This document shows, piece after piece, positions 3,319 to 21,747 of a stretch of 26,974 nt of DNA. The stretch spans positions 1-26,974 of the forward strand of contig JABFSB010000248.1 in assembly GCA_013140875.1 (NCBI GenBank), read 5' to 3'. The notes under the pieces are model-generated. The model searched no databases, was not told the origin of the DNA, and saw only the letters and a program-made list of their open reading frames with translations. The position numbers and the translations under genes are program-made. The stretch's first letter is position 1. Every line of letters begins with the position of its first letter. The stretch is from Acidobacteriota bacterium (GTDB lineage Bacteria > Acidobacteriota > Blastocatellia > Pyrinomonadales > Pyrinomonadaceae).

Positions 3319-4248
3319 ATGCTGGCTGTTGTCGGTGCATTGGTTGCAAATGGAATAATCACGGCGTTGAAGTTTTTGGCGGCGGTGATGACCGGTTCGG
3401 CCGGAATGATGGCCGAGGCGTTTCACTCGCTGGCGGATACGACAAACCAGATCTTTCTATTGCTTGGATTGCGCTTCTTTCGGCGGCCGCCGTCGGAGCG
3501 ACACCACTTCGGGTACGGCAAGGAAAGGTTTTTCTGGTCGTTCATCGCGGCGGTTTTTATTTTCGGCGTCGGTGCAACCTATGCGATATATGAGGGATTC
3601 CAAAAGCTAAGGCACCCGCACGCTCCCGAGAATCTGGCTTGGGCCTATTGGATACTGGGAATTTCATTTGTGCTTGAGGCAGGCTCTATCGGTCTGGCCC
3701 TTTATCAGGAAACCCAGGAAGCAAAGCACGAGGGCCTTTCGCTTCGCGAGTATTTGAGAGAATCGAAAGACCCGACTGCGAAGACCGTTATCTTTGAGGA
3801 TTCGGCCGCTCTTATCGGGATCGTTATCGCTTTTGCGGGAATTTATTTGACCGATCACCACGTGATTCCCGGATTTGAGGCTTATTGGGACGGACTGGCT
3901 TCTATCCTGATCGGAGTTGTCCTGGCCATTGTGGCGTTCGTCCTGGCAAAAAGTACCCGCGGACTGCTCCTCGGCGAAGCGGCCACGCCCAAATCGCTGC
4001 ATGCGATTCGCGGGGCTATTAAAGAGCATCCAAATGTTAATAGGGTGGTCGAACTTTTGACGATGCACCTTGCTCCAAAGCAAATTTTGGTCAACGCGCA
4101 CGTCAATATGAAGGACTCTCTCACCAACACCGAGATAATCGACACCATCGCCGAGATCGAGGAAAGGATAAAGGCGGCCGAGCCGAAAGTCGATATGATA
4201 TTCTTGGAGACAGCGGGCCTGAAACCGACAAAAGCCGAAAAAACTTGA
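3319..4248 (+). CDS. Cation diffusion facilitator (CDF) family transporter, SLC30A9/ZnT9-like motif type
   Basis: AEAFHSLADTTNQ, HHFGYGKERFFWS, TM5 VIFEDSAA, YWDGLASILIG, C-terminal dimerisation domain (LLTMHLAP). Confidence 0.92.
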   Translation: MLAVVGALVANGIITALKFLAAVMTGSAGMMAEAFHSLADTTNQIFLLLGLRFFRRPPSERHHFGYGKERFFWSFIAAVFIFGVGATYAIYEGFQKLRHPHAPENLAWAYWILGISFVLEAGSIGLALYQETQEAKHEGLSLREYLRESKDPTAKTVIFEDSAALIGIVIAFAGIYLTDHHVIPGFEAYWDGLASILIGVVLAIVAFVLAKSTRGLLLGEAATPKSLHAIRGAIKEHPNVNRVVELLTMHLAPKQILVNAHVNMKDSLTNTEIIDTIAEIEERIKAAEPKVDMIFLETAGLKPTKAEKT

Positions 4249-17952: not shown

Positions 17953-18249
17953 TTACCAATTCACTTTCCCCTCTTGTGAAGTATCGATCTGCGCAAGGTC
18001 GACGCCTTCGTTGTAGAAGAAGATCTTCATGTTGTCGAAAAGGAATTGGTGCGAATCGGGATTTGAAACATCAAGGCCGAAGTGGTTTATCAACTGCATC
18101 TGTTTCTTTTGCCACTCGGCCCAGCAGTCTTTGCACATCTCATCGCCGATCTTTTGTCCAAGCTCGGTCGGCACCGGTGCAAAGCCGATGGGCTCGTTTT
18201 TCTGCCCGCAGCGGGCGCATTTGAATTTGTCGTTTCCGAATAATGCCAT
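17953..18249 (-). CDS. yggX: Fe(II)-trafficking / oxidative damage protection protein (YggX family), four-Cys variant
   Basis: P.PTELGQKI....CKDCWAEWQKKQMQLINHFGL...FLFDNMKIFF matches the YggX pattern; CARC and CKDC pairs. Confidence 0.85.
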   Translation of the reverse strand: MALFGNDKFKCARCGQKNEPIGFAPVPTELGQKIGDEMCKDCWAEWQKKQMQLINHFGLDVSNPDSHQFLFDNMKIFFYNEGVDLAQIDTSQEGKVNW

Positions 18250-18293: not shown

Positions 18294-18743
18294 CTAGGCG
18301 GCCCGCTTGATCGCCGCAAGCACGTCTTCGTCAGCCTGTCGGAACAAACTCAGCGGCTGCACCTTGTGATACGCAATCTTGCCTTCTTTGTCTATCACGA
18401 CAACGCCGCGTGCCGAGCGTCCCGGCAGCCACGATTTCATTCCGTATAAGGCCGAGACCTTTCCGTCAGGATCGGACAACAATGTCAGCGGCAACTCGTT
18501 CTTCTCGGCAAACCCTTTATGCGATTCGACAGTGTCCGTCGAAATACCGACAACCCCGGCACCCGTTGCTTGATACTCAGACCAATGATCCCGCACCGAA
18601 CACATCTGCGCCGTGCAAACCGGCGTGTTGTCTCCGGGATAGAAAAGCAGCACGACTGTATGTCCTTTGTAATTACTTAGGGACCAATCGCCACCCCCGC
18701 CGTCTTTTAAAGTGAAATCGGGTGCTGTGTCGCCAGTGTTCAT
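18294..18743 (-). CDS. bcp: Peroxiredoxin, Bcp/PrxQ type (2-Cys, CxxxxC)
   Basis: APDFTL, LLFYPGDNTPVCTAQMC (PxxxTxxC peroxidatic motif plus resolving Cys five residues later), VVGISTD, LLSDPDG. Confidence 0.92.
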   Translation of the reverse strand: MNTGDTAPDFTLKDGGGGDWSLSNYKGHTVVLLFYPGDNTPVCTAQMCSVRDHWSEYQATGAGVVGISTDTVESHKGFAEKNELPLTLLSDPDGKVSALYGMKSWLPGRSARGVVVIDKEGKIAYHKVQPLSLFRQADEDVLAAIKRAA

Positions 18744-18756
18744 GAATTTGTCTGCC

Positions 18757-19122
18757 TTAGTCTGTTATGTATGCTCGGTTTACACGACCGTTTTCCTGTT
18801 CAAATTCTATATGCAGGTAGTGTATCCAAGGTCCATTGTTCGCCCCGCCAAGCCAAGCCCCTGGGTCTGTGAAGTATTCGAAGGAGCCCACCCTATCAAT
18901 ATTTTCCGGTTCACCCAACCTACTACGAAGCTCGTCAGACGACTTACCCGCCAATAGATCCCTCGTTAATAGATCATTTGTCATTCGCCCTCGTTCACGA
19001 AGATCTCGTGTTTTCCACTTCGTCGCGTCGAATTGAACATTGTTTGCCTTAAAGTCACGAGTGCAACTGCCTAAGAAAAAGCAGCAAATGGCGAGGAAAG
19101 CAAATGGAACTCGATGCTTCAT
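18757..19122 (-). CDS. Hypothetical lipoprotein (possible SmpA/BamE-like fold)
   Basis: Lipobox LGS-C; FDATKWK...R.RM..DLL...L.GKS.DELR..LGEP pattern. Confidence 0.7.
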   Translation of the reverse strand: MKHRVPFAFLAICCFFLGSCTRDFKANNVQFDATKWKTRDLRERGRMTNDLLTRDLLAGKSSDELRSRLGEPENIDRVGSFEYFTDPGAWLGGANNGPWIHYLHIEFEQENGRVNRAYITD

Positions 19123-19123
19123 T

Positions 19124-19203
19124 TAAGTCTCTAATTTCCTTGAATGGCACTCATTATCCGTAAAAAATCCGGTAAGTACCGTTATGCCGATTCATTGTGC
19201 ATC
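19124..19203 (-). pseudogene. Decayed copy C of the 3' end of the PflX-like radical SAM gene
   Basis: Minus strand reads GAA TCG GCA TAA CGG TAC TTA CCG GAT TTT..ACG GAT AAT GAG..CCA TTC AAG GAA ATT AGA GAC TTA = ESA*RYLPDF/TDNE/PFKEIRDL versus intact ESASLYYRPDFTDADKPFRDIRDF; small indels and a stop. Confidence 0.75.
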
Positions 19204-19223
19204 TACCAAAATGATTTCGGGCT

Positions 19224-20020
19224 TTACTGTTTCTCTTTCGGAGCCGCGATTTCTTTCAGGGCTGTTTTAGCATTTAGTCCTGATACCACCGTTTTTCCCG
19301 TTTTCTGTTCCAACTCCAACCTTGCCACGCGGGCCACATTACCGCCCTGCTGGGCTACGGTTTTATTTTCGTCAAAGGTTTTCGGATCGGTCGCCTGCGA
19401 AATATCCTTTGTCGAGGCTTCTGCAAGCATGTTCAGGATCAACTCCGTATTGGTCATATTGTCACGGAGGTTTTCTTTTTTCAGGTCCTTAAGCGTTTTA
19501 TATTCCTTCGTGTTTTTGCCCGACCACGTTTTAGTGATGATGTCTGTAAGCGTCGCAAACTGCATGCCTTCTTTCATTCCGCGCCGTTTCCATTCGTCTG
19601 TCAGCTCTTTGCGTATCTCGATGCTTTTCAGACGCTGATTGATCCAGTTTCGGAATAGCCGAGTTTTAGATATTGCTCCAAAGCCCTGTCGATGGTCAGT
19701 TCAGGGTCCTGCATTTCATCAAGACGCTCTTTGCCAAGTTGAGCGAGCCAGAGTTTGAAAAGCTCTGCTTTTGGCGATGGAATAGACTGGATAAGCCTGA
19801 ATATCTGTTCGGTGTTTGCAACGTCGGTAAGCCGCATCTTGCCGTCAGGTGCGGGCATTTTCAAAGCGTTACAATTTGTAACGGTTTCATTTCCTTCGTC
19901 TTTTAGTCTCTTTTTTAAAACACGCCAATAGACCTTGGGATTGGGACTCTCGGTAAGTACAGCAACAACATCTACAATTGCCAAGTACCACTTCTCTTGC
20001 TCATGATCCCAGAGAGATCT
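19224..20020 (-). pseudogene. BRO-N domain (antirepressor-like) gene, 5'-truncated and split by a 1-bp frameshift
   Basis: RSLWDHEQEKWYLAIVDVVAVLTES...KVYWRVLKKRL...PSPKAE continues into WINQRLKSIEIRKELTDEW...NLRDNMTNTELILNMLAE only if one A is added at GAAAC (19648-19650). An in-frame TAA lies just upstream of RSLW and no native start is left. Confidence 0.85.
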
Positions 20021-20105
20021 CGAATATCCTTAATTGGCTTATCTTTATCCACAAAATCCGGCCGTAGTATAGCGAAGCCGATTCGAGTTCCTGCATAAGT
20101 CCTTA
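20017..20105 (-). pseudogene. Decayed copy A of the 3' end of the PflX-like radical SAM gene
   Basis: Minus strand MQELESASLYY(R,-1bp)PDFVDKDKPIKDIRD versus intact MQEFESASLYYRPDFTDADKPFRDIRD: 22/27 aa identical, about 61/81 nt, with most differences at synonymous third positions. Confidence 0.92.
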
Positions 20106-20114
20106 TCTATATAG

Positions 20115-20405
20115 CTATGCAAATAGCTCATCCAAATCTCTCGCAGCGTAAAGAACGCGAACAATTGCGACTTTTCCGCCCCAAAGTCGGTAGAAGATCA
20201 AATAATTATCTTCGGGAAAACTGCGTAGCTCTTCTTTTAGTTCCGGGCGTTCGCGTCCTGCCTGGGTGTTATCGGCCAGCATTTCGAAAAGATCGGTTAG
20301 GCGGTTGTTAAAGACGAGGGCGGCGTCCAGATTATCTGTGGCAATGTAGATCAGAATTTCATCAATGTCCTTCTCGGCCTGAGCGGTAATAATATATTTA
20401 GCCAT
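20115..20405 (-). CDS. parE: Type II TA toxin, RelE/ParE family
   Basis: YIITAQAEKDIDEI..YIA.DN..AA..F...L......LA..P/T..GR.RPEL...LRSFP...YLIFY......V.IVRVL..ARD pattern; overlaps parD by 8 bp. Confidence 0.93.
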   Translation of the reverse strand: MAKYIITAQAEKDIDEILIYIATDNLDAALVFNNRLTDLFEMLADNTQAGRERPELKEELRSFPEDNYLIFYRLWGGKVAIVRVLYAARDLDELFA

Positions 20406-20664
20406 TTTGCCGTTTCATTCTGAGCAGCCGATCCTTGAATTCCGACATAACCTCGTTTCCATCCCGAATCCGTCCCCCCTCAAGATCATCAATGCCTTTT
20501 TGAATCTCAATACGAAGAGATTCGAGTTTCTTCTCACGCATCTCGTCACGCTGATGCAAGAGCCGGATGCCCTCGCGCACAACCTCACTAGCTGAGTTGT
20601 AAAGACCGCCTTTGACCTTTAGCTGGACAATATTCTCAAGTTCTGGTGTTAGGGAAACATTCAT
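20398..20664 (-). CDS. parD: Type II TA antitoxin, ParD/CopG-Arc-MetJ (RHH) family
   Basis: MNVSLTPELE..V..KV..G.YNSASEVVREGIRLL...L..LR.EIQKG; SD GGAG. Confidence 0.93.
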   Translation of the reverse strand: MNVSLTPELENIVQLKVKGGLYNSASEVVREGIRLLHQRDEMREKKLESLRIEIQKGIDDLEGGRIRDGNEVMSEFKDRLLRMKRQNG

Positions 20665-20727
20665 GATAAAACTCCATTCTAAGTTTTAATAATATATAAC
20701 ATACATTAGCATGAATAGCAATCTTTG

Positions 20728-21747
20728 TTATTGAAAATCACGAATATCACGAAATGGCTTGTCCGCATCGGTGAAATCCGGACGATAATACAGCGAGGCC
20801 GATTCGAATTCCTGCATAAAGCCTTCTTCCATTCCTAGGTCTTCCAAAAGTGACAGGGCCTGGAGCCATTCGGCTTCGGAGATGCGGCGGGACAATAGGA
20901 TATAGCGCTCGTCGGTGGAAGCTTTGTTGGTTGCGTAGTATTGGGCCATTAAAGAGATCGCTGTTTTGGGGGAAAGCTCGTCGCGTATCCAGCGAAGATT
21001 TTCTTCGATCCCGGCGATATCATTTGGCAGGACGAGCAGGCGAATGAGAAGGCCGCGTTTGAGCAGACCGTCTTCACTGAAAACCAGTTCGTCGCCCATC
21101 TGTCGGTGCATTTCTTTTATCGCGGCCCGGGCGTGTTCCTTATAATCGCGAACTTTCGAATACTGAAATCCGGCATCTGAGTCAGCATATTTCAGATCTG
21201 GAAGATAAATATCGACGATGCCATCGAGCAATTTCAAAACCTCGACCGAATCATACGCGTTGGTGTTGTAAACGATCGGCAGCCGCAAACCTTTTTCAGC
21301 CGCGACCAAAATCGCCCTCGCCATCTGCGGTGCGAAATGCGTCGGCGAGACAAAGCCGATGTTATGACAGCCTTTCGATTGCAGTTCCAACATCATCTCG
21401 GCCAGCCGCTGATGCGTAACTTCGTTTTTTTTCTGAGTTTTCCACGTCTGTGAGATTTGATAATTCTGGCAATAAACGCAGCGAAGGTTGCAGTTGCCGA
21501 AAAAAATATTCCCGGCACCGTGCGTGCCCGACAGGCACGGCTCTTCGCCAAAATGCGCCGTGTAAGAAGATACGATCGGCAGGCGGCCGGAATAACACGC
21601 GGCAATCTCGTCGTTCAGCCGATCGTTGCCGCAGTCTTTCGGGCAGACCGTGCAGGAGCGGAGCATTTCCTCAAGCGCGGTTACGCGCTCCTCAAGCTTA
21701 TTCTCCGCCAAGAGTGTTAGATACTTTGGGTTTTGATTTGAACTCAC
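20728..21747 (-). CDS. pflX: PflX-like radical SAM protein (PFL-activating-enzyme-related)
   Basis: CTVCPKDCG, HFGEEPCLSG, GNIFFGNCNLRCVYCQNYQISQ (CxxxCxxC), NIGFVSPTHF, VYNTNAYDS, DIYLPDLKY, LLIRLLVLP; GTG start with SD GGAG. Confidence 0.9.
   Translation of the reverse strand: MSSNQNPKYLTLLAENKLEERVTALEEMLRSCTVCPKDCGNDRLNDEIAACYSGRLPIVSSYTAHFGEEPCLSGTHGAGNIFFGNCNLRCVYCQNYQISQTWKTQKKNEVTHQRLAEMMLELQSKGCHNIGFVSPTHFAPQMARAILVAAEKGLRLPIVYNTNAYDSVEVLKLLDGIVDIYLPDLKYADSDAGFQYSKVRDYKEHARAAIKEMHRQMGDELVFSEDGLLKRGLLIRLLVLPNDIAGIEENLRWIRDELSPKTAISLMAQYYATNKASTDERYILLSRRISEAEWLQALSLLEDLGMEEGFMQEFESASLYYRPDFTDADKPFRDIRDFQ

What the first reader, a model, noticed from the sequence alone, without database searches (positions are those of the whole stretch)
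19124..20826. Stack of cassettes each carrying its own 3' end of the pflX-like gene: an integrase-free, chronological insertion array
Seen directly: the last ~27 codons of the radical SAM gene occur three times on the minus strand. Copy B is intact (20737-20826, MQEFESASLYYRPDFTDADKPFRDIRD). Copy A (20017-20105, MQELESASLYY-PDFVDKDKPIKDIRD) has one 1-bp deletion. Copy C (19124-19203, ESA*RYLPDF/TDNE/PFKEIRDL) has several indels and a stop. All share GAATCGGC and CCGGATTT, with periods of 721 and 891 bp. Each copy is followed by different cargo: B by parDE (intact), A by BRO-N (pseudogene), C by a lipoprotein whose ATG abuts it. Decay of the copies increases with distance from the live gene. 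Inference: a unit of [pflX 3' end + cargo] repeatedly entered by single crossover near the MQE/ESA codons, gave the gene a new tail and pushed the old tail downstream. This resembles target-gene reconstitution by tRNA-targeting integrative elements, but here the target is a protein gene, units are under 1 kb, and no recombinase is in view. I know of no named system with exactly this layout.
Basis: partly seen in the sequence, partly recalled or inferred. Interest (0 to 1): 0.88.

Follow-up and report, generated by a model that had tools for sequence, protein, structure and literature searches.

The report
Displaced gene-end copies mark cassette hotspot
Small toxin-antitoxin and candidate phage-defence genes were inserted several times just after a housekeeping radical SAM gene in an uncultured soil/water acidobacterium; each insertion gave the gene a new 3' end and pushed the old end downstream, apparently through the cell's own recombination and without a dedicated integrase.

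Summary
A profile of 35 orthologous gene ends finds copy A (20015-20105, E=4e-18) and copy C (19125-19196, E=3e-5) downstream of the live end. The layout is live tail B, parDE, tail A, broken BRO gene, tail C, lipoprotein gene, bcp.

The window comes from an uncultured Pyrinomonadaceae MAG. In this genus the rSAM|bcp junction is a hotspot. The gap ranges from a 4-nt overlap to 3.6 kb and holds co-oriented small cassettes in varying order. At least 11 of 132 genomes carry displaced tails, always after parDE or BRO cassettes.

Live and displaced tails differ mainly at third codon positions, so they diverged as coding sequence in different lineages. They are imports, not local duplications.

No integrase lies at the locus in more than 100 relatives, the tails form no hairpin, and the left boundaries vary. 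In two genomes the "half tail" is a bcp-5'::tail chimera joined at an 11-nt microhomology.

At least five other conserved genes in the same genome (ThiC, SecA, NuoE, an Fe-S protein and another) show the same signature.

Best reading: homology-anchored, partly illegitimate recombination. This is the housekeeping-gene counterpart of Rhs "C-terminal displacement" and of T6SS immunity arrays, so it is a new variant of a known kind. The sub-mechanism (linear HFIR, circle, or tail-armed module) is unresolved.

The parts
20728..21747 (-). Radical SAM gene (PflX/activase-like, 339 aa), the conserved anchor gene
   Evidence: Pfam Radical_SAM, E=2.8e-13. Orthologues at 83-92% aa identity in 33 of 36 genus genomes.
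20731..20838 (-). Live tail B: the last 36 codons of the rSAM gene (profile positions 1-108); stop codon at 20728-20730
   Evidence: nhmmer 99.9 bits; alignment A2.
20115..20727 (-). parDE cassette. The upstream operator-like palindrome starts directly at the rSAM stop. parD is 20398-20664 and parE is 20115-20405, both intact.
   Evidence: Pfam ParD_antitoxin and ParE_toxin; NCBIfam ParD family. The same cassette, with the conserved upstream motif 'aacaaagattgtt', is in 7 or more relatives. It groups with the G153, G079 and G021 cassettes at 97/97 support.
20015..20105 (-). Displaced tail A, a pseudo-3' end with a 1-nt deletion. Detectable homology starts 10 nt after the parE stop. Its last codons are lost in a fusion to BRO.
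   Evidence: nhmmer E=4e-18; CM E=6e-17; boundary. Differences from B by codon position are 6/3/12.
19224..20020 (-). BRO-N / PDC-S13-type gene, now a pseudogene. It is 5'-truncated at about codon 16 by an ~80-nt deletion that fused it to tail A, and it is frameshifted near 19580-19650.
   Evidence: Pfam Bro-N. Two-frame match to the intact 276-aa homologue of G027, with 3 in-frame stops. Junction read. The intact homologue matches PADLOC PDC-S13 at E=8.5e-137.
19125..19196 (-). Displaced tail C, the oldest copy, with several indels and a stop. Homology is detectable from profile position 22-32.
   Evidence: nhmmer E=3e-5; CM E=8e-5; boundary.
18757..19122 (-). Lipoprotein-like ORF (121 aa). 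Its ATG abuts tail C.
   Evidence: ORF; no Pfam, NCBIfam or PADLOC match. A homologue follows the live tail directly in G033/L046 and L124.
18294..18743 (-). bcp (AhpC/TSA peroxiredoxin), the conserved distal flank of the hotspot. In the simplest relatives its ATG overlaps the rSAM stop.
   Evidence: Pfam AhpC-TSA, E=2.5e-40. Gap of -4 (ATGA) in 5 genomes.
17953..18249 (-). Fe(2+)-trafficking protein gene; conserved synteny marker beyond bcp
   Evidence: Pfam Iron_traffic; syntenic in nearly all relatives.

Best explanation
The junction between the radical SAM gene and bcp is a recombination hotspot in this Pyrinomonadaceae genus. DNA from related species that carries the homologous rSAM gene plus a small selfish or defence cassette next to it recombines into the chromosome. 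The cassettes are parDE or a BRO-N/PDC-S13 gene, and earlier the lipoprotein ORF.

One end of the exchange is ordinary homologous recombination inside the conserved rSAM gene, or in some events inside bcp. The other end is joined within or just upstream of the resident gene end. That second joint forms either at short microhomology (an illegitimate, HFIR-type joint) or by pairing of an already displaced tail carried by the donor with the recipient's live tail.

The result is a live gene with an imported 3' end, then the new cargo, then the former 3' end as a non-coding remnant, then whatever lay there before. In this window three rounds happened in this order: lipoprotein ORF (tail C then live), BRO (tail A then live), parDE (tail B live now). 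Displaced tails and older cargo then erode by deletion and point mutation. No dedicated recombinase is involved.

Shown: the copies, the hotspot, the foreign origin of the tails, the microhomology chimeras, and the lack of integrase and of att/attC features. Inferred: the uptake route (transformation or another), RecA dependence, and the order of events.
For: 1. Copies A and C are significant against a profile that does not contain them.
2. The locus is a hotspot. The rSAM|bcp gap ranges from a 4-nt overlap to 2232 nt in 31 genomes and up to 3616 nt in 65 further loci. The recurrent cassettes are parDE, BRO, two membrane ORFs, a 160-aa ORF, the lipoprotein ORF, SnoaL and DUF6884, all co-oriented and in varying order. 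Architectures are patchy on the rSAM-body tree; the window's sister has only the 125-aa ORF.
3. Displaced tails occur in at least 11 of 132 genomes and always follow a parDE or BRO cassette. Some are nearly intact: G146 98.6 bits, G153 95.5 bits.
4. The tails are of foreign origin. Differences between displaced and own live tail fall at codon positions 1/2/3 as 1/3/12, 0/3/11 and 3/1/16 in G146, G153 and G079, and as 6/3/12 and 3/6/14 for window A and C. The live-versus-live baseline is 18/10/72%. Displaced tails are usually not closest to their own live tail.
5. Illegitimate joints are present. In G024 and G094 the half tail is preceded by the spacer, ATG and first 9-10 codons of bcp, with the switch at the shared 11-mer CCGGATTTTAC (bcp 'APDFT', tail 'RPDFT'). 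The bcp part of the G024 chimera is orthologous to sister G030's true bcp start. Its tail part plus spacer matches the live tail and spacer upstream of the same 205-aa ORF in G031.
6. There is no site-specific machinery. No tyrosine recombinase is on the contig and none at the locus in relatives. Tails have no hairpin, with fold z-scores from -1.5 to +1.0. Left boundaries vary.
7. The signature is general. In the same genome it occurs at an Fe-S protein gene (Unstab_antitox/ParE cargo), ThiC (KilA-N/PDC-S22 cargo), NuoE, SecA and a 172-aa gene. Pooled over these five loci and the rSAM locus, 49 of 79 differences are at third positions, p=2e-7. The Fe-S locus repeats the pattern in G023, G024 and G027.
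8. In this window, decay increases with distance from the live gene: 99.9, 63.8 and 22.4 bits, with parDE intact and BRO broken.
Against: - No donor could be identified. Species are about 20-25% divergent at the DNA level, and tails are too short to place phylogenetically.
- In the parDE clade (window, G153, G079) the displaced tail starts at nearly the same position (profile 0-14), immediately after the parE stop. At the Fe-S locus the displaced piece is aa 201-227 in three genomes. Such constancy is not expected from independent random illegitimate joints. It hints at a pre-formed module or a defined mechanism.
- Displaced pieces are all about 80-160 nt, although random joints could lie anywhere in the gene.
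- Natural competence is not shown. comEC and dprA are present, but they are in most bacteria.
- Metagenome depth is 4-5x and only contigs are kept, so excised or empty forms could not be tested.
- Vertical inheritance of an old array with many losses cannot be fully excluded for some genomes.
Confidence: 0.65

Rival explanations
1. Circular [gene-end + cargo] units are excised by recombination between two tail copies in a donor array. They re-enter by a single Campbell-type homologous crossover within the live tail. proposed for rhs tips.
For: - The layout is exactly what a single crossover gives: tail, cargo, tail.
- Tail boundaries are nearly constant within the parDE clade and at the Fe-S locus.
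- The parDE cassettes with full-length displaced tails are monophyletic.
- PMC2935791 proposes this for rhs.
Against: - No circle or joint was seen, though the data are too shallow to count against it.
- Non-replicating circles of under 1 kb need a transfer route.
- The bcp-5'::tail chimeras cannot arise this way.
- Boundaries differ among lineages.
Confidence: 0.15
2. The cassettes are non-autonomous elements moved by a site-specific recombinase encoded elsewhere. Candidates are a CIME-like satellite of an integrative element that targets the rSAM 3' end, or integron cassettes inserted at a secondary site.
For: - Direct repeats of a gene 3' end flanking inserted DNA are the hallmark of integrase-mediated insertion into gene ends.
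- The cassettes are compact, co-oriented and stacked as in integrons.
- Integron integrases above the TIGR02249 cut-off exist in 13 of 81 genus genomes.
- Six tyrosine recombinases lie elsewhere in this MAG.
Against: - No intact element and no integrase was found at the locus in about 100 genomes.
- IntI is never near the locus and was not found in G000 or in most tail-bearing genomes.
- The tails lack attC-like structure.
- Boundaries are variable and some joints are at microhomology.
- The same signature at six unrelated genes would need six target specificities.
Confidence: 0.1
3. The gene end was duplicated locally (by slippage or unequal crossing-over), the spare copy then decayed neutrally, and the cargo arrived independently.
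For: The copies are direct, close together and progressively decayed.
Against: - Differences between live and displaced tails are concentrated at third codon positions: 49 of 79 over six loci of this genome (p=2e-7), and 39 of 50 in the three best-preserved copies in relatives. Neutral decay predicts one third.
- Displaced tails are usually no closer to their own live tail than to those of other species.
Confidence: 0.05

Closest known systems
Rhs 'C-terminal displacement' (Jackson et al. 2009, PMC2935791), and orphan CdiA-CT/Rhs tips
   Same: - A conserved gene body receives a new 3' end.
- The former 3' end, attached to a fragment of conserved core, is left downstream, so arrays of displaced ends build up.
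- Homologous recombination, not an integrase, is proposed as the mechanism.
   Different: - Here the gene is a housekeeping radical SAM enzyme and the successive ends are isofunctional, with the same conserved 35 residues. They are not polymorphic toxin tips.
- What is gained is unrelated cargo placed after the stop codon (toxin-antitoxin, BRO-N/PDC-S13, small ORFs), not an immunity gene.
- The pattern is seen at several unrelated genes of one genome.
Sequential displacement of T6SS effector-immunity modules in Vibrio cholerae, attributed to homology-facilitated illegitimate recombination (Kirchberger et al. 2017, PMC5361080; HFIR: de Vries & Wackernagel 2002, Prudhomme et al. 2002, as cited there)
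   Same: - There is a one-sided homologous anchor in the conserved upstream gene.
- The new module enters proximally and older material shifts distally, sometimes with the 3' end of the old gene.
- No integrase is involved.
   Different: - In Vibrio the joints were inferred. Here two joints are directly readable as chimeras at an 11-nt microhomology.
- The anchor can be on either flank.
- The cargo differs.
Minimal mobile elements of Neisseria (Saunders & Snyder 2002, cited in PMC1538595) and core defence hotspots (Johnson et al. 2023, PMC10250203)
   Same: - A fixed site between two conserved genes holds different small cassettes in different genomes.
- It has no mobile-element hallmarks.
- Exchange through flanking homology is assumed.
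- The cargo here includes candidate defence genes (PADLOC PDC-S13, PDC-M57A).
   Different: As far as I recall, those descriptions do not report duplicated ends of the flanking gene between cassettes. I did not check the papers for this point. Here such ends record the order and the manner of insertion.
Integrase-mediated insertion into protein-gene 3' ends with reconstitution of the gene (e14/phage 21 at icd; ICESt1/CIME at fda).
   Same: The element supplies a replacement 3' end, and the original end is displaced to the far side of the insert.
   Different: - There is no integrase and no fixed core.
- Inserts are 0.6-1 kb and consist of cargo only.
- Some joints are at microhomology.

Membership tests
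Site-specific integrative element targeting a gene 3' end | A tyrosine or serine recombinase encoded in the element or adjacent to it | tested here: not met
   No PF00589 match on the contig. Cargo between the tails is only parDE and BRO. No recombinase was seen in the gaps of 47 + 80 related loci.
Site-specific integrative element targeting a gene 3' end | Direct repeats with a fixed boundary and a common crossover core | tested here: not met
   Left boundaries lie at profile positions -27, 0, 1, 14, 22, 43, 49, 53, 58 and 59. Two joints lie in the 5' end of bcp.
Integron cassette array | IntI gene and attI next to the array | tested here: not met
   TIGR02249 is above its cut-off in 13 of 81 genus genomes but on other contigs or far from the locus. 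It was not found in G000, which is 76% complete.
Integron cassette array | attC-type imperfect hairpin at the 3' end of each cassette | tested here: not met
   ssDNA folds of live and displaced tails on both strands give z-scores from -1.46 to +0.98 against shuffles.
C-terminal displacement arrays (Rhs/CdiA/T6SS type) | Live gene followed by displaced 3' ends, each carrying a piece of the conserved core | tested here: met
   Tails A and C in the window; displaced tails of up to 135 nt in 11 or more genomes.
C-terminal displacement arrays (Rhs/CdiA/T6SS type) | Polymorphic toxin tip with a cognate immunity gene as the exchanged unit | tested here: not met
   Successive tails encode the same conserved peptide. 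The cargo is parDE, BRO-N and small ORFs.
Homology-facilitated illegitimate recombination | Homologous tract on one side and a joint at a few bases of microhomology on the other | tested here: met
   For G024 and G094, the bcp-5'::tail chimeras switch at CCGGATTTTAC. For the window's own joints the evidence is inconclusive: tail A starts 10 nt after the parE stop, with no clear microhomology.
Homology-facilitated illegitimate recombination | Uptake of linear DNA by natural transformation, and RecA dependence | not testable with these tools
   comEC and dprA homologues are present in G000 and in 4 relatives, as in most bacteria.
Minimal mobile element / core hotspot | Different cassettes at one site between the same two conserved genes in different genomes | tested here: met
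ParDE type II toxin-antitoxin | Adjacent, overlapping small ORFs matching the ParD and ParE families | tested here: met
   PF03693 E=2.8e-7, PF05016 E=1.5e-17, TIGR02606 E=9e-18, and an 8-nt overlap of the two ORFs. Activity was not tested.

The most novel reading that the evidence does not exclude
The units [gene end, cargo, displaced gene end] are a recombinase-free kind of mobile cassette. A toxin-antitoxin or defence gene carries copies of a conserved host gene end as portable homology arms. It can therefore enter any related genome by the host's own homologous recombination, whatever lies downstream there. The addiction module then penalises loss by tail-to-tail deletion.

This would explain three observations. 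Displaced tails of parDE cassettes start at the same position in three non-sister species. The Fe-S locus keeps aa 201-227 in three genomes. The arms are always about 80-160 nt.
Probability: 0.25. Interest if true: 0.8.

Novelty: new variant of a known kind. Interest (0 to 1): 0.58.

Why it matters
How chromosomal toxin-antitoxin modules and small defence genes move between genomes without transposases or integrases is a long-standing open question. "Hotspots between core genes" are usually explained by flanking homologous recombination, without direct footprints.

Here the footprints are readable in three ways. Imported gene ends are identified by a codon-position signature. Displaced old ends date successive events. 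Two joints sit at an 11-nt microhomology. The pattern recurs at several conserved genes and across a whole genus.

This makes the mechanism testable by transformation assays with tail-armed cassettes and by population genomics. It also extends C-terminal displacement from polymorphic toxins to ordinary housekeeping genes. For annotation, it warns that short pseudo-3' ends downstream of genes mark acquired cassettes.

Tried and rejected
- Tail phylogeny and donor search. Identities of B, A and C to 50 or more live tails do not single out donors or the sister species. The tails are too short and the species too divergent, so this was uninformative.
- Mosaic or closest-relative analysis. The best relatives are only 76-79% identical at the DNA level.
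- bcp versus rSAM-body discordance for G024. Both are closest to sister G030. Only the 5' end of bcp differs.
- Read mapping for excised circles or empty sites. Only Logan contigs at 4-5x depth were available and no joints were reported. This is not evidence of absence.
- attC-like folding of the tails: none found.
- Integron involvement. IntI is present in part of the genus but is not linked to the locus.
- Large island downstream of rSAM in G019 (L052): the genes there are housekeeping genes, so this is a synteny break.
- Nuclease role for the BRO C-terminal domain. There is no informative family: a weak DdrC hit at 19.6 bits, and the Atlas neighbours are hypothetical proteins. Similarity to the KilA-N cargo protein is weak, E=0.005.
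- Assembly artefact: rejected.
- Local duplication: rejected.
Full report
**Observation**

The last ~35 codons of the radical SAM gene (20728-21747, minus strand) occur three times. The repeat finder reports spacings of 720/721 and 891 bp, and MAFFT aligns the three segments.

I built a profile from the 108-nt gene ends of 35 orthologues, without copies A and C. It scores the live end B at 99.9 bits. Copy A scores 63.8 bits (E=4e-18; window 20015-20104). Copy C scores 22.4 bits (E=3e-5; 19125-19195). An Infernal sequence-only model gives the same three hits in the whole MAG.

Between B and A lie intact parD and parE (Pfam and NCBIfam). Between A and C lies a BRO-N gene that is fused to tail A at about its codon 16 and is also frameshifted. 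The ATG of a 121-aa lipoprotein-like ORF abuts C, and bcp and an Fe-trafficking gene follow.

The window is a complete contig of a 76%-complete MAG from drinking-water metagenomes. Logan contigs of two runs bridge every junction at 100% identity.

**Comparative picture**

The organism belongs to an uncultured Pyrinomonadaceae genus (Acidobacteriota, Blastocatellia; record titles).

In five relatives the rSAM stop overlaps the bcp start (ATGA). In others the gap ranges up to 2232 nt. In 65 further loci it reaches 3616 nt, with a median of 353 nt.

The gap holds a small set of recurrent, co-oriented, tightly packed cassettes:
- parDE
- an intact ~275-aa BRO-N protein
- 125-aa and 205-aa membrane ORFs
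- a 160-aa ORF
- the lipoprotein ORF
- SnoaL/DUF4440
- DUF6884

They occur in different combinations and orders: parDE-BRO in the window and G027, BRO-parDE in G030, G017 and G072. On a tree of the rSAM body these architectures are patchy. The window's sister genome has only the 125-aa ORF, and the next has an empty site. Two species with 94-97% identical flanks differ completely in the middle of the gap.

In G033 and L124 the lipoprotein ORF follows the live tail directly, just as it follows C in the window.

**Displaced tails elsewhere**

I searched 150 genomes of the genus with the tail model, and 132 have the tail. Extra copies at the locus occur in G000, G146, G153, G079, G110, G027, G024, G173 and G023. 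nhmmer adds G072 and G094, with a weak one in G017.

Each extra copy follows a parDE or BRO cassette, or parDE plus the 125-aa ORF. Some are nearly intact reading frames: G146 at 98.6 bits, G153 at 95.5 bits. Many cargo-bearing genomes have no extra tail, for example G020, where parDE runs directly into bcp.

**The tails were imported**

Differences between a displaced tail and the live tail of the same genome fall mostly at third codon positions:

| Copy | Differences at codon positions 1/2/3 |
|---|---|
| G146 | 1/3/12 |
| G153 | 0/3/11 |
| G079 | 3/1/16 |
| Window A | 6/3/12 |
| Window C | 3/6/14 |

Live-versus-live comparisons give 18/10/72%. Neutral decay of a local duplicate would give equal thirds. 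So the two copies diverged as functional coding sequence in different lineages, and one of them was imported.

Displaced tails are generally no closer to their own live tail than to those of other species. Donors could not be named.

**How the joints were made**

No tyrosine recombinase is on the contig. None appears in the gaps of about 100 related loci. The one locus without bcp downstream is a synteny break with housekeeping genes.

Integron integrases exist in 13 of 81 genus genomes, but away from the locus. The tails have no hairpin potential.

Left boundaries of the displaced copies differ: profile positions -27, 0, 1, 14, 22, 43, 49, 53, 58 and 59.

The most telling cases are G024 and G094. 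There the half tail is preceded by the spacer, ATG and first nine or ten codons of bcp. The sequence switches to the tail at the 11-mer CCGGATTTTAC, which both genes contain (bcp "APDFT", tail "RPDFT").
- The bcp part of the G024 chimera is orthologous to the true bcp start of its sister G030.
- The tail part and the following spacer match the live tail and spacer that precede the same 205-aa ORF in G031.
- G024's functional bcp has a different 5' end.

This joint was therefore made at microhomology, with the homologous anchor on the bcp side. Insertion can come from either flank.

For the window itself, the decay gradient favours anchoring on the rSAM side, with the newest cargo next to the gene. 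The evidence is B intact, A 63.8 bits, C 22.4 bits, parDE intact and BRO broken. If cargo had instead entered from the bcp side, C would be the youngest copy, yet it is the most decayed.

**Unresolved sub-mechanism**

The parDE cassettes of the window, G153 and G079 form a clade with G021 (97/97). Their displaced tails all begin at profile 0-14, within 5-10 nt of the parE stop, although the host species are not sisters.

At a second locus (below) the displaced piece is aa 201-227 in three genomes.

This constancy suggests that a pre-formed [tail, cargo, tail] module spreads by homologous recombination using both tail copies as arms. The substrate could be linear DNA, or the circle proposed for rhs by Jackson et al.. 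Each transfer would "refresh" the displaced tail.

I cannot separate this from repeated joints at a favoured site.

**The process is general in this organism**

A self-comparison of the MAG, plus a search with the last 45 residues of every long ORF, found tail-only duplicates downstream of five other conserved genes:

| Gene | Cargo |
|---|---|
| 4Fe-4S protein gene | Unstab_antitox + ParE-family pair, followed by a T5orf172 gene |
| ThiC | 272-aa KilA-N protein, PADLOC PDC-S22 |
| NuoE | ~500 nt, no family recognised |
| SecA | two ORFs |
| 172-aa gene | DUF6036 nucleotidyltransferase |

The 5' end of dnaG is also duplicated around a DUF3368/PIN-like ORF.

Over these five loci and the rSAM locus, 49 of 79 differences between live and displaced copies are at third positions (p=2e-7).

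The Fe-S locus behaves as a second hotspot in the genus. The TA pair is present in six of 30 genomes, and displaced tails occur in G000, G023, G024 and G027.

**Cargo**

The intact BRO-N protein matches the PADLOC candidate PDC-S13 over its full length (E=8.5e-137). The DUF6884 cassette matches PDC-M57A. PDCs are untested candidates predicted by embedding in known defence systems. The hotspot thus collects addiction and candidate defence genes.

**Comparison with what is known**

The layout and logic match three described phenomena:
- Rhs C-terminal displacement (PMC2935791).
- Sequential displacement of T6SS effector-immunity modules, for which HFIR was proposed (PMC5361080).
- Neisseria minimal mobile elements and core defence hotspots, for the site concept.

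What differs:
- The genes are housekeeping genes whose successive ends are isofunctional.
- The gain is unrelated cargo after the stop codon.
- The signature occurs at several genes in one genome.
- The joints are directly readable.

I file it as a new variant of a known kind.

**Verdict**

- The best mechanism is homology-anchored recombination with partly illegitimate joints (0.65).
- The main rivals are a homologous circle (0.15), a trans-acting site-specific recombinase (0.10) and local duplication (0.05).

Noticed in passing
G000 contig C474 (L117:741-822 and 1412-1493): The tail of a 4Fe-4S protein gene is duplicated 671 nt downstream, around an Unstab_antitox + ParE-family pair. A T5orf172/MUG113 gene follows. 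The same TA pair and displaced tail (aa 201-227) recur in G023, G024 and G027. G001 has two TA pairs in tandem.
   Followed up: partly
G000 contigs C469 (L118), C476 (L119), C68 (L120), C149 (L121): Tail-only duplicates of ThiC, NuoE, SecA and a 172-aa gene lie 0.5-2.7 kb downstream of the live ends. The ThiC cargo is a KilA-N protein matching PADLOC PDC-S22.
   Followed up: partly
G000 contig C6 (L122:2682-2805 and 3548-3672): What reads as the 5' end of dnaG (zinc-finger region; recognised by eye from the translated repeat, not checked against a family model) is duplicated 866 nt upstream, around a DUF3368 (PIN-like) ORF. This is a 'head' displacement, mirroring the tail cases.
   Followed up: no
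G000 contig C26 (L116:5780-10196): A second BRO-N gene (334 aa) lies next to an N6/N4 DNA methylase. It is followed by two full-length exonuclease III-type genes (59% aa identity) flanking a FitA-like/PIN toxin-antitoxin pair. This may be a whole-gene version of the same process.
   Followed up: partly
L107 (G160:C83:5634-5717): In one relative only the rSAM tail (profile 22-105) remains, directly after the DUF2721 gene. The rSAM body and bcp were not found there.
   Followed up: no
genus genomes, e.g. G093:C70, G023:C34, G032:C1:1995671-1996609: Integron integrases above the TIGR02249 cut-off are in 13 of 81 genomes of this acidobacterial genus, and degraded copies are in four more. Their cassette arrays were not examined.
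   Followed up: no
L064 (G027:C17:1-8000): MAG G027 holds a second, partial rSAM end on another contig, followed by different cargo (DUF6884/PDC-M57A plus a 189-aa ORF). This suggests two strains or species in one bin.
   Followed up: no
window 20728-20731 region; relatives L032, L037, L038, L039, L060: In the simplest relatives the rSAM stop and the bcp start overlap (ATGA). This suggests translational coupling of a radical SAM activase-like enzyme with a peroxiredoxin. All cassettes are inserted into this operon in the same orientation.
   Followed up: no
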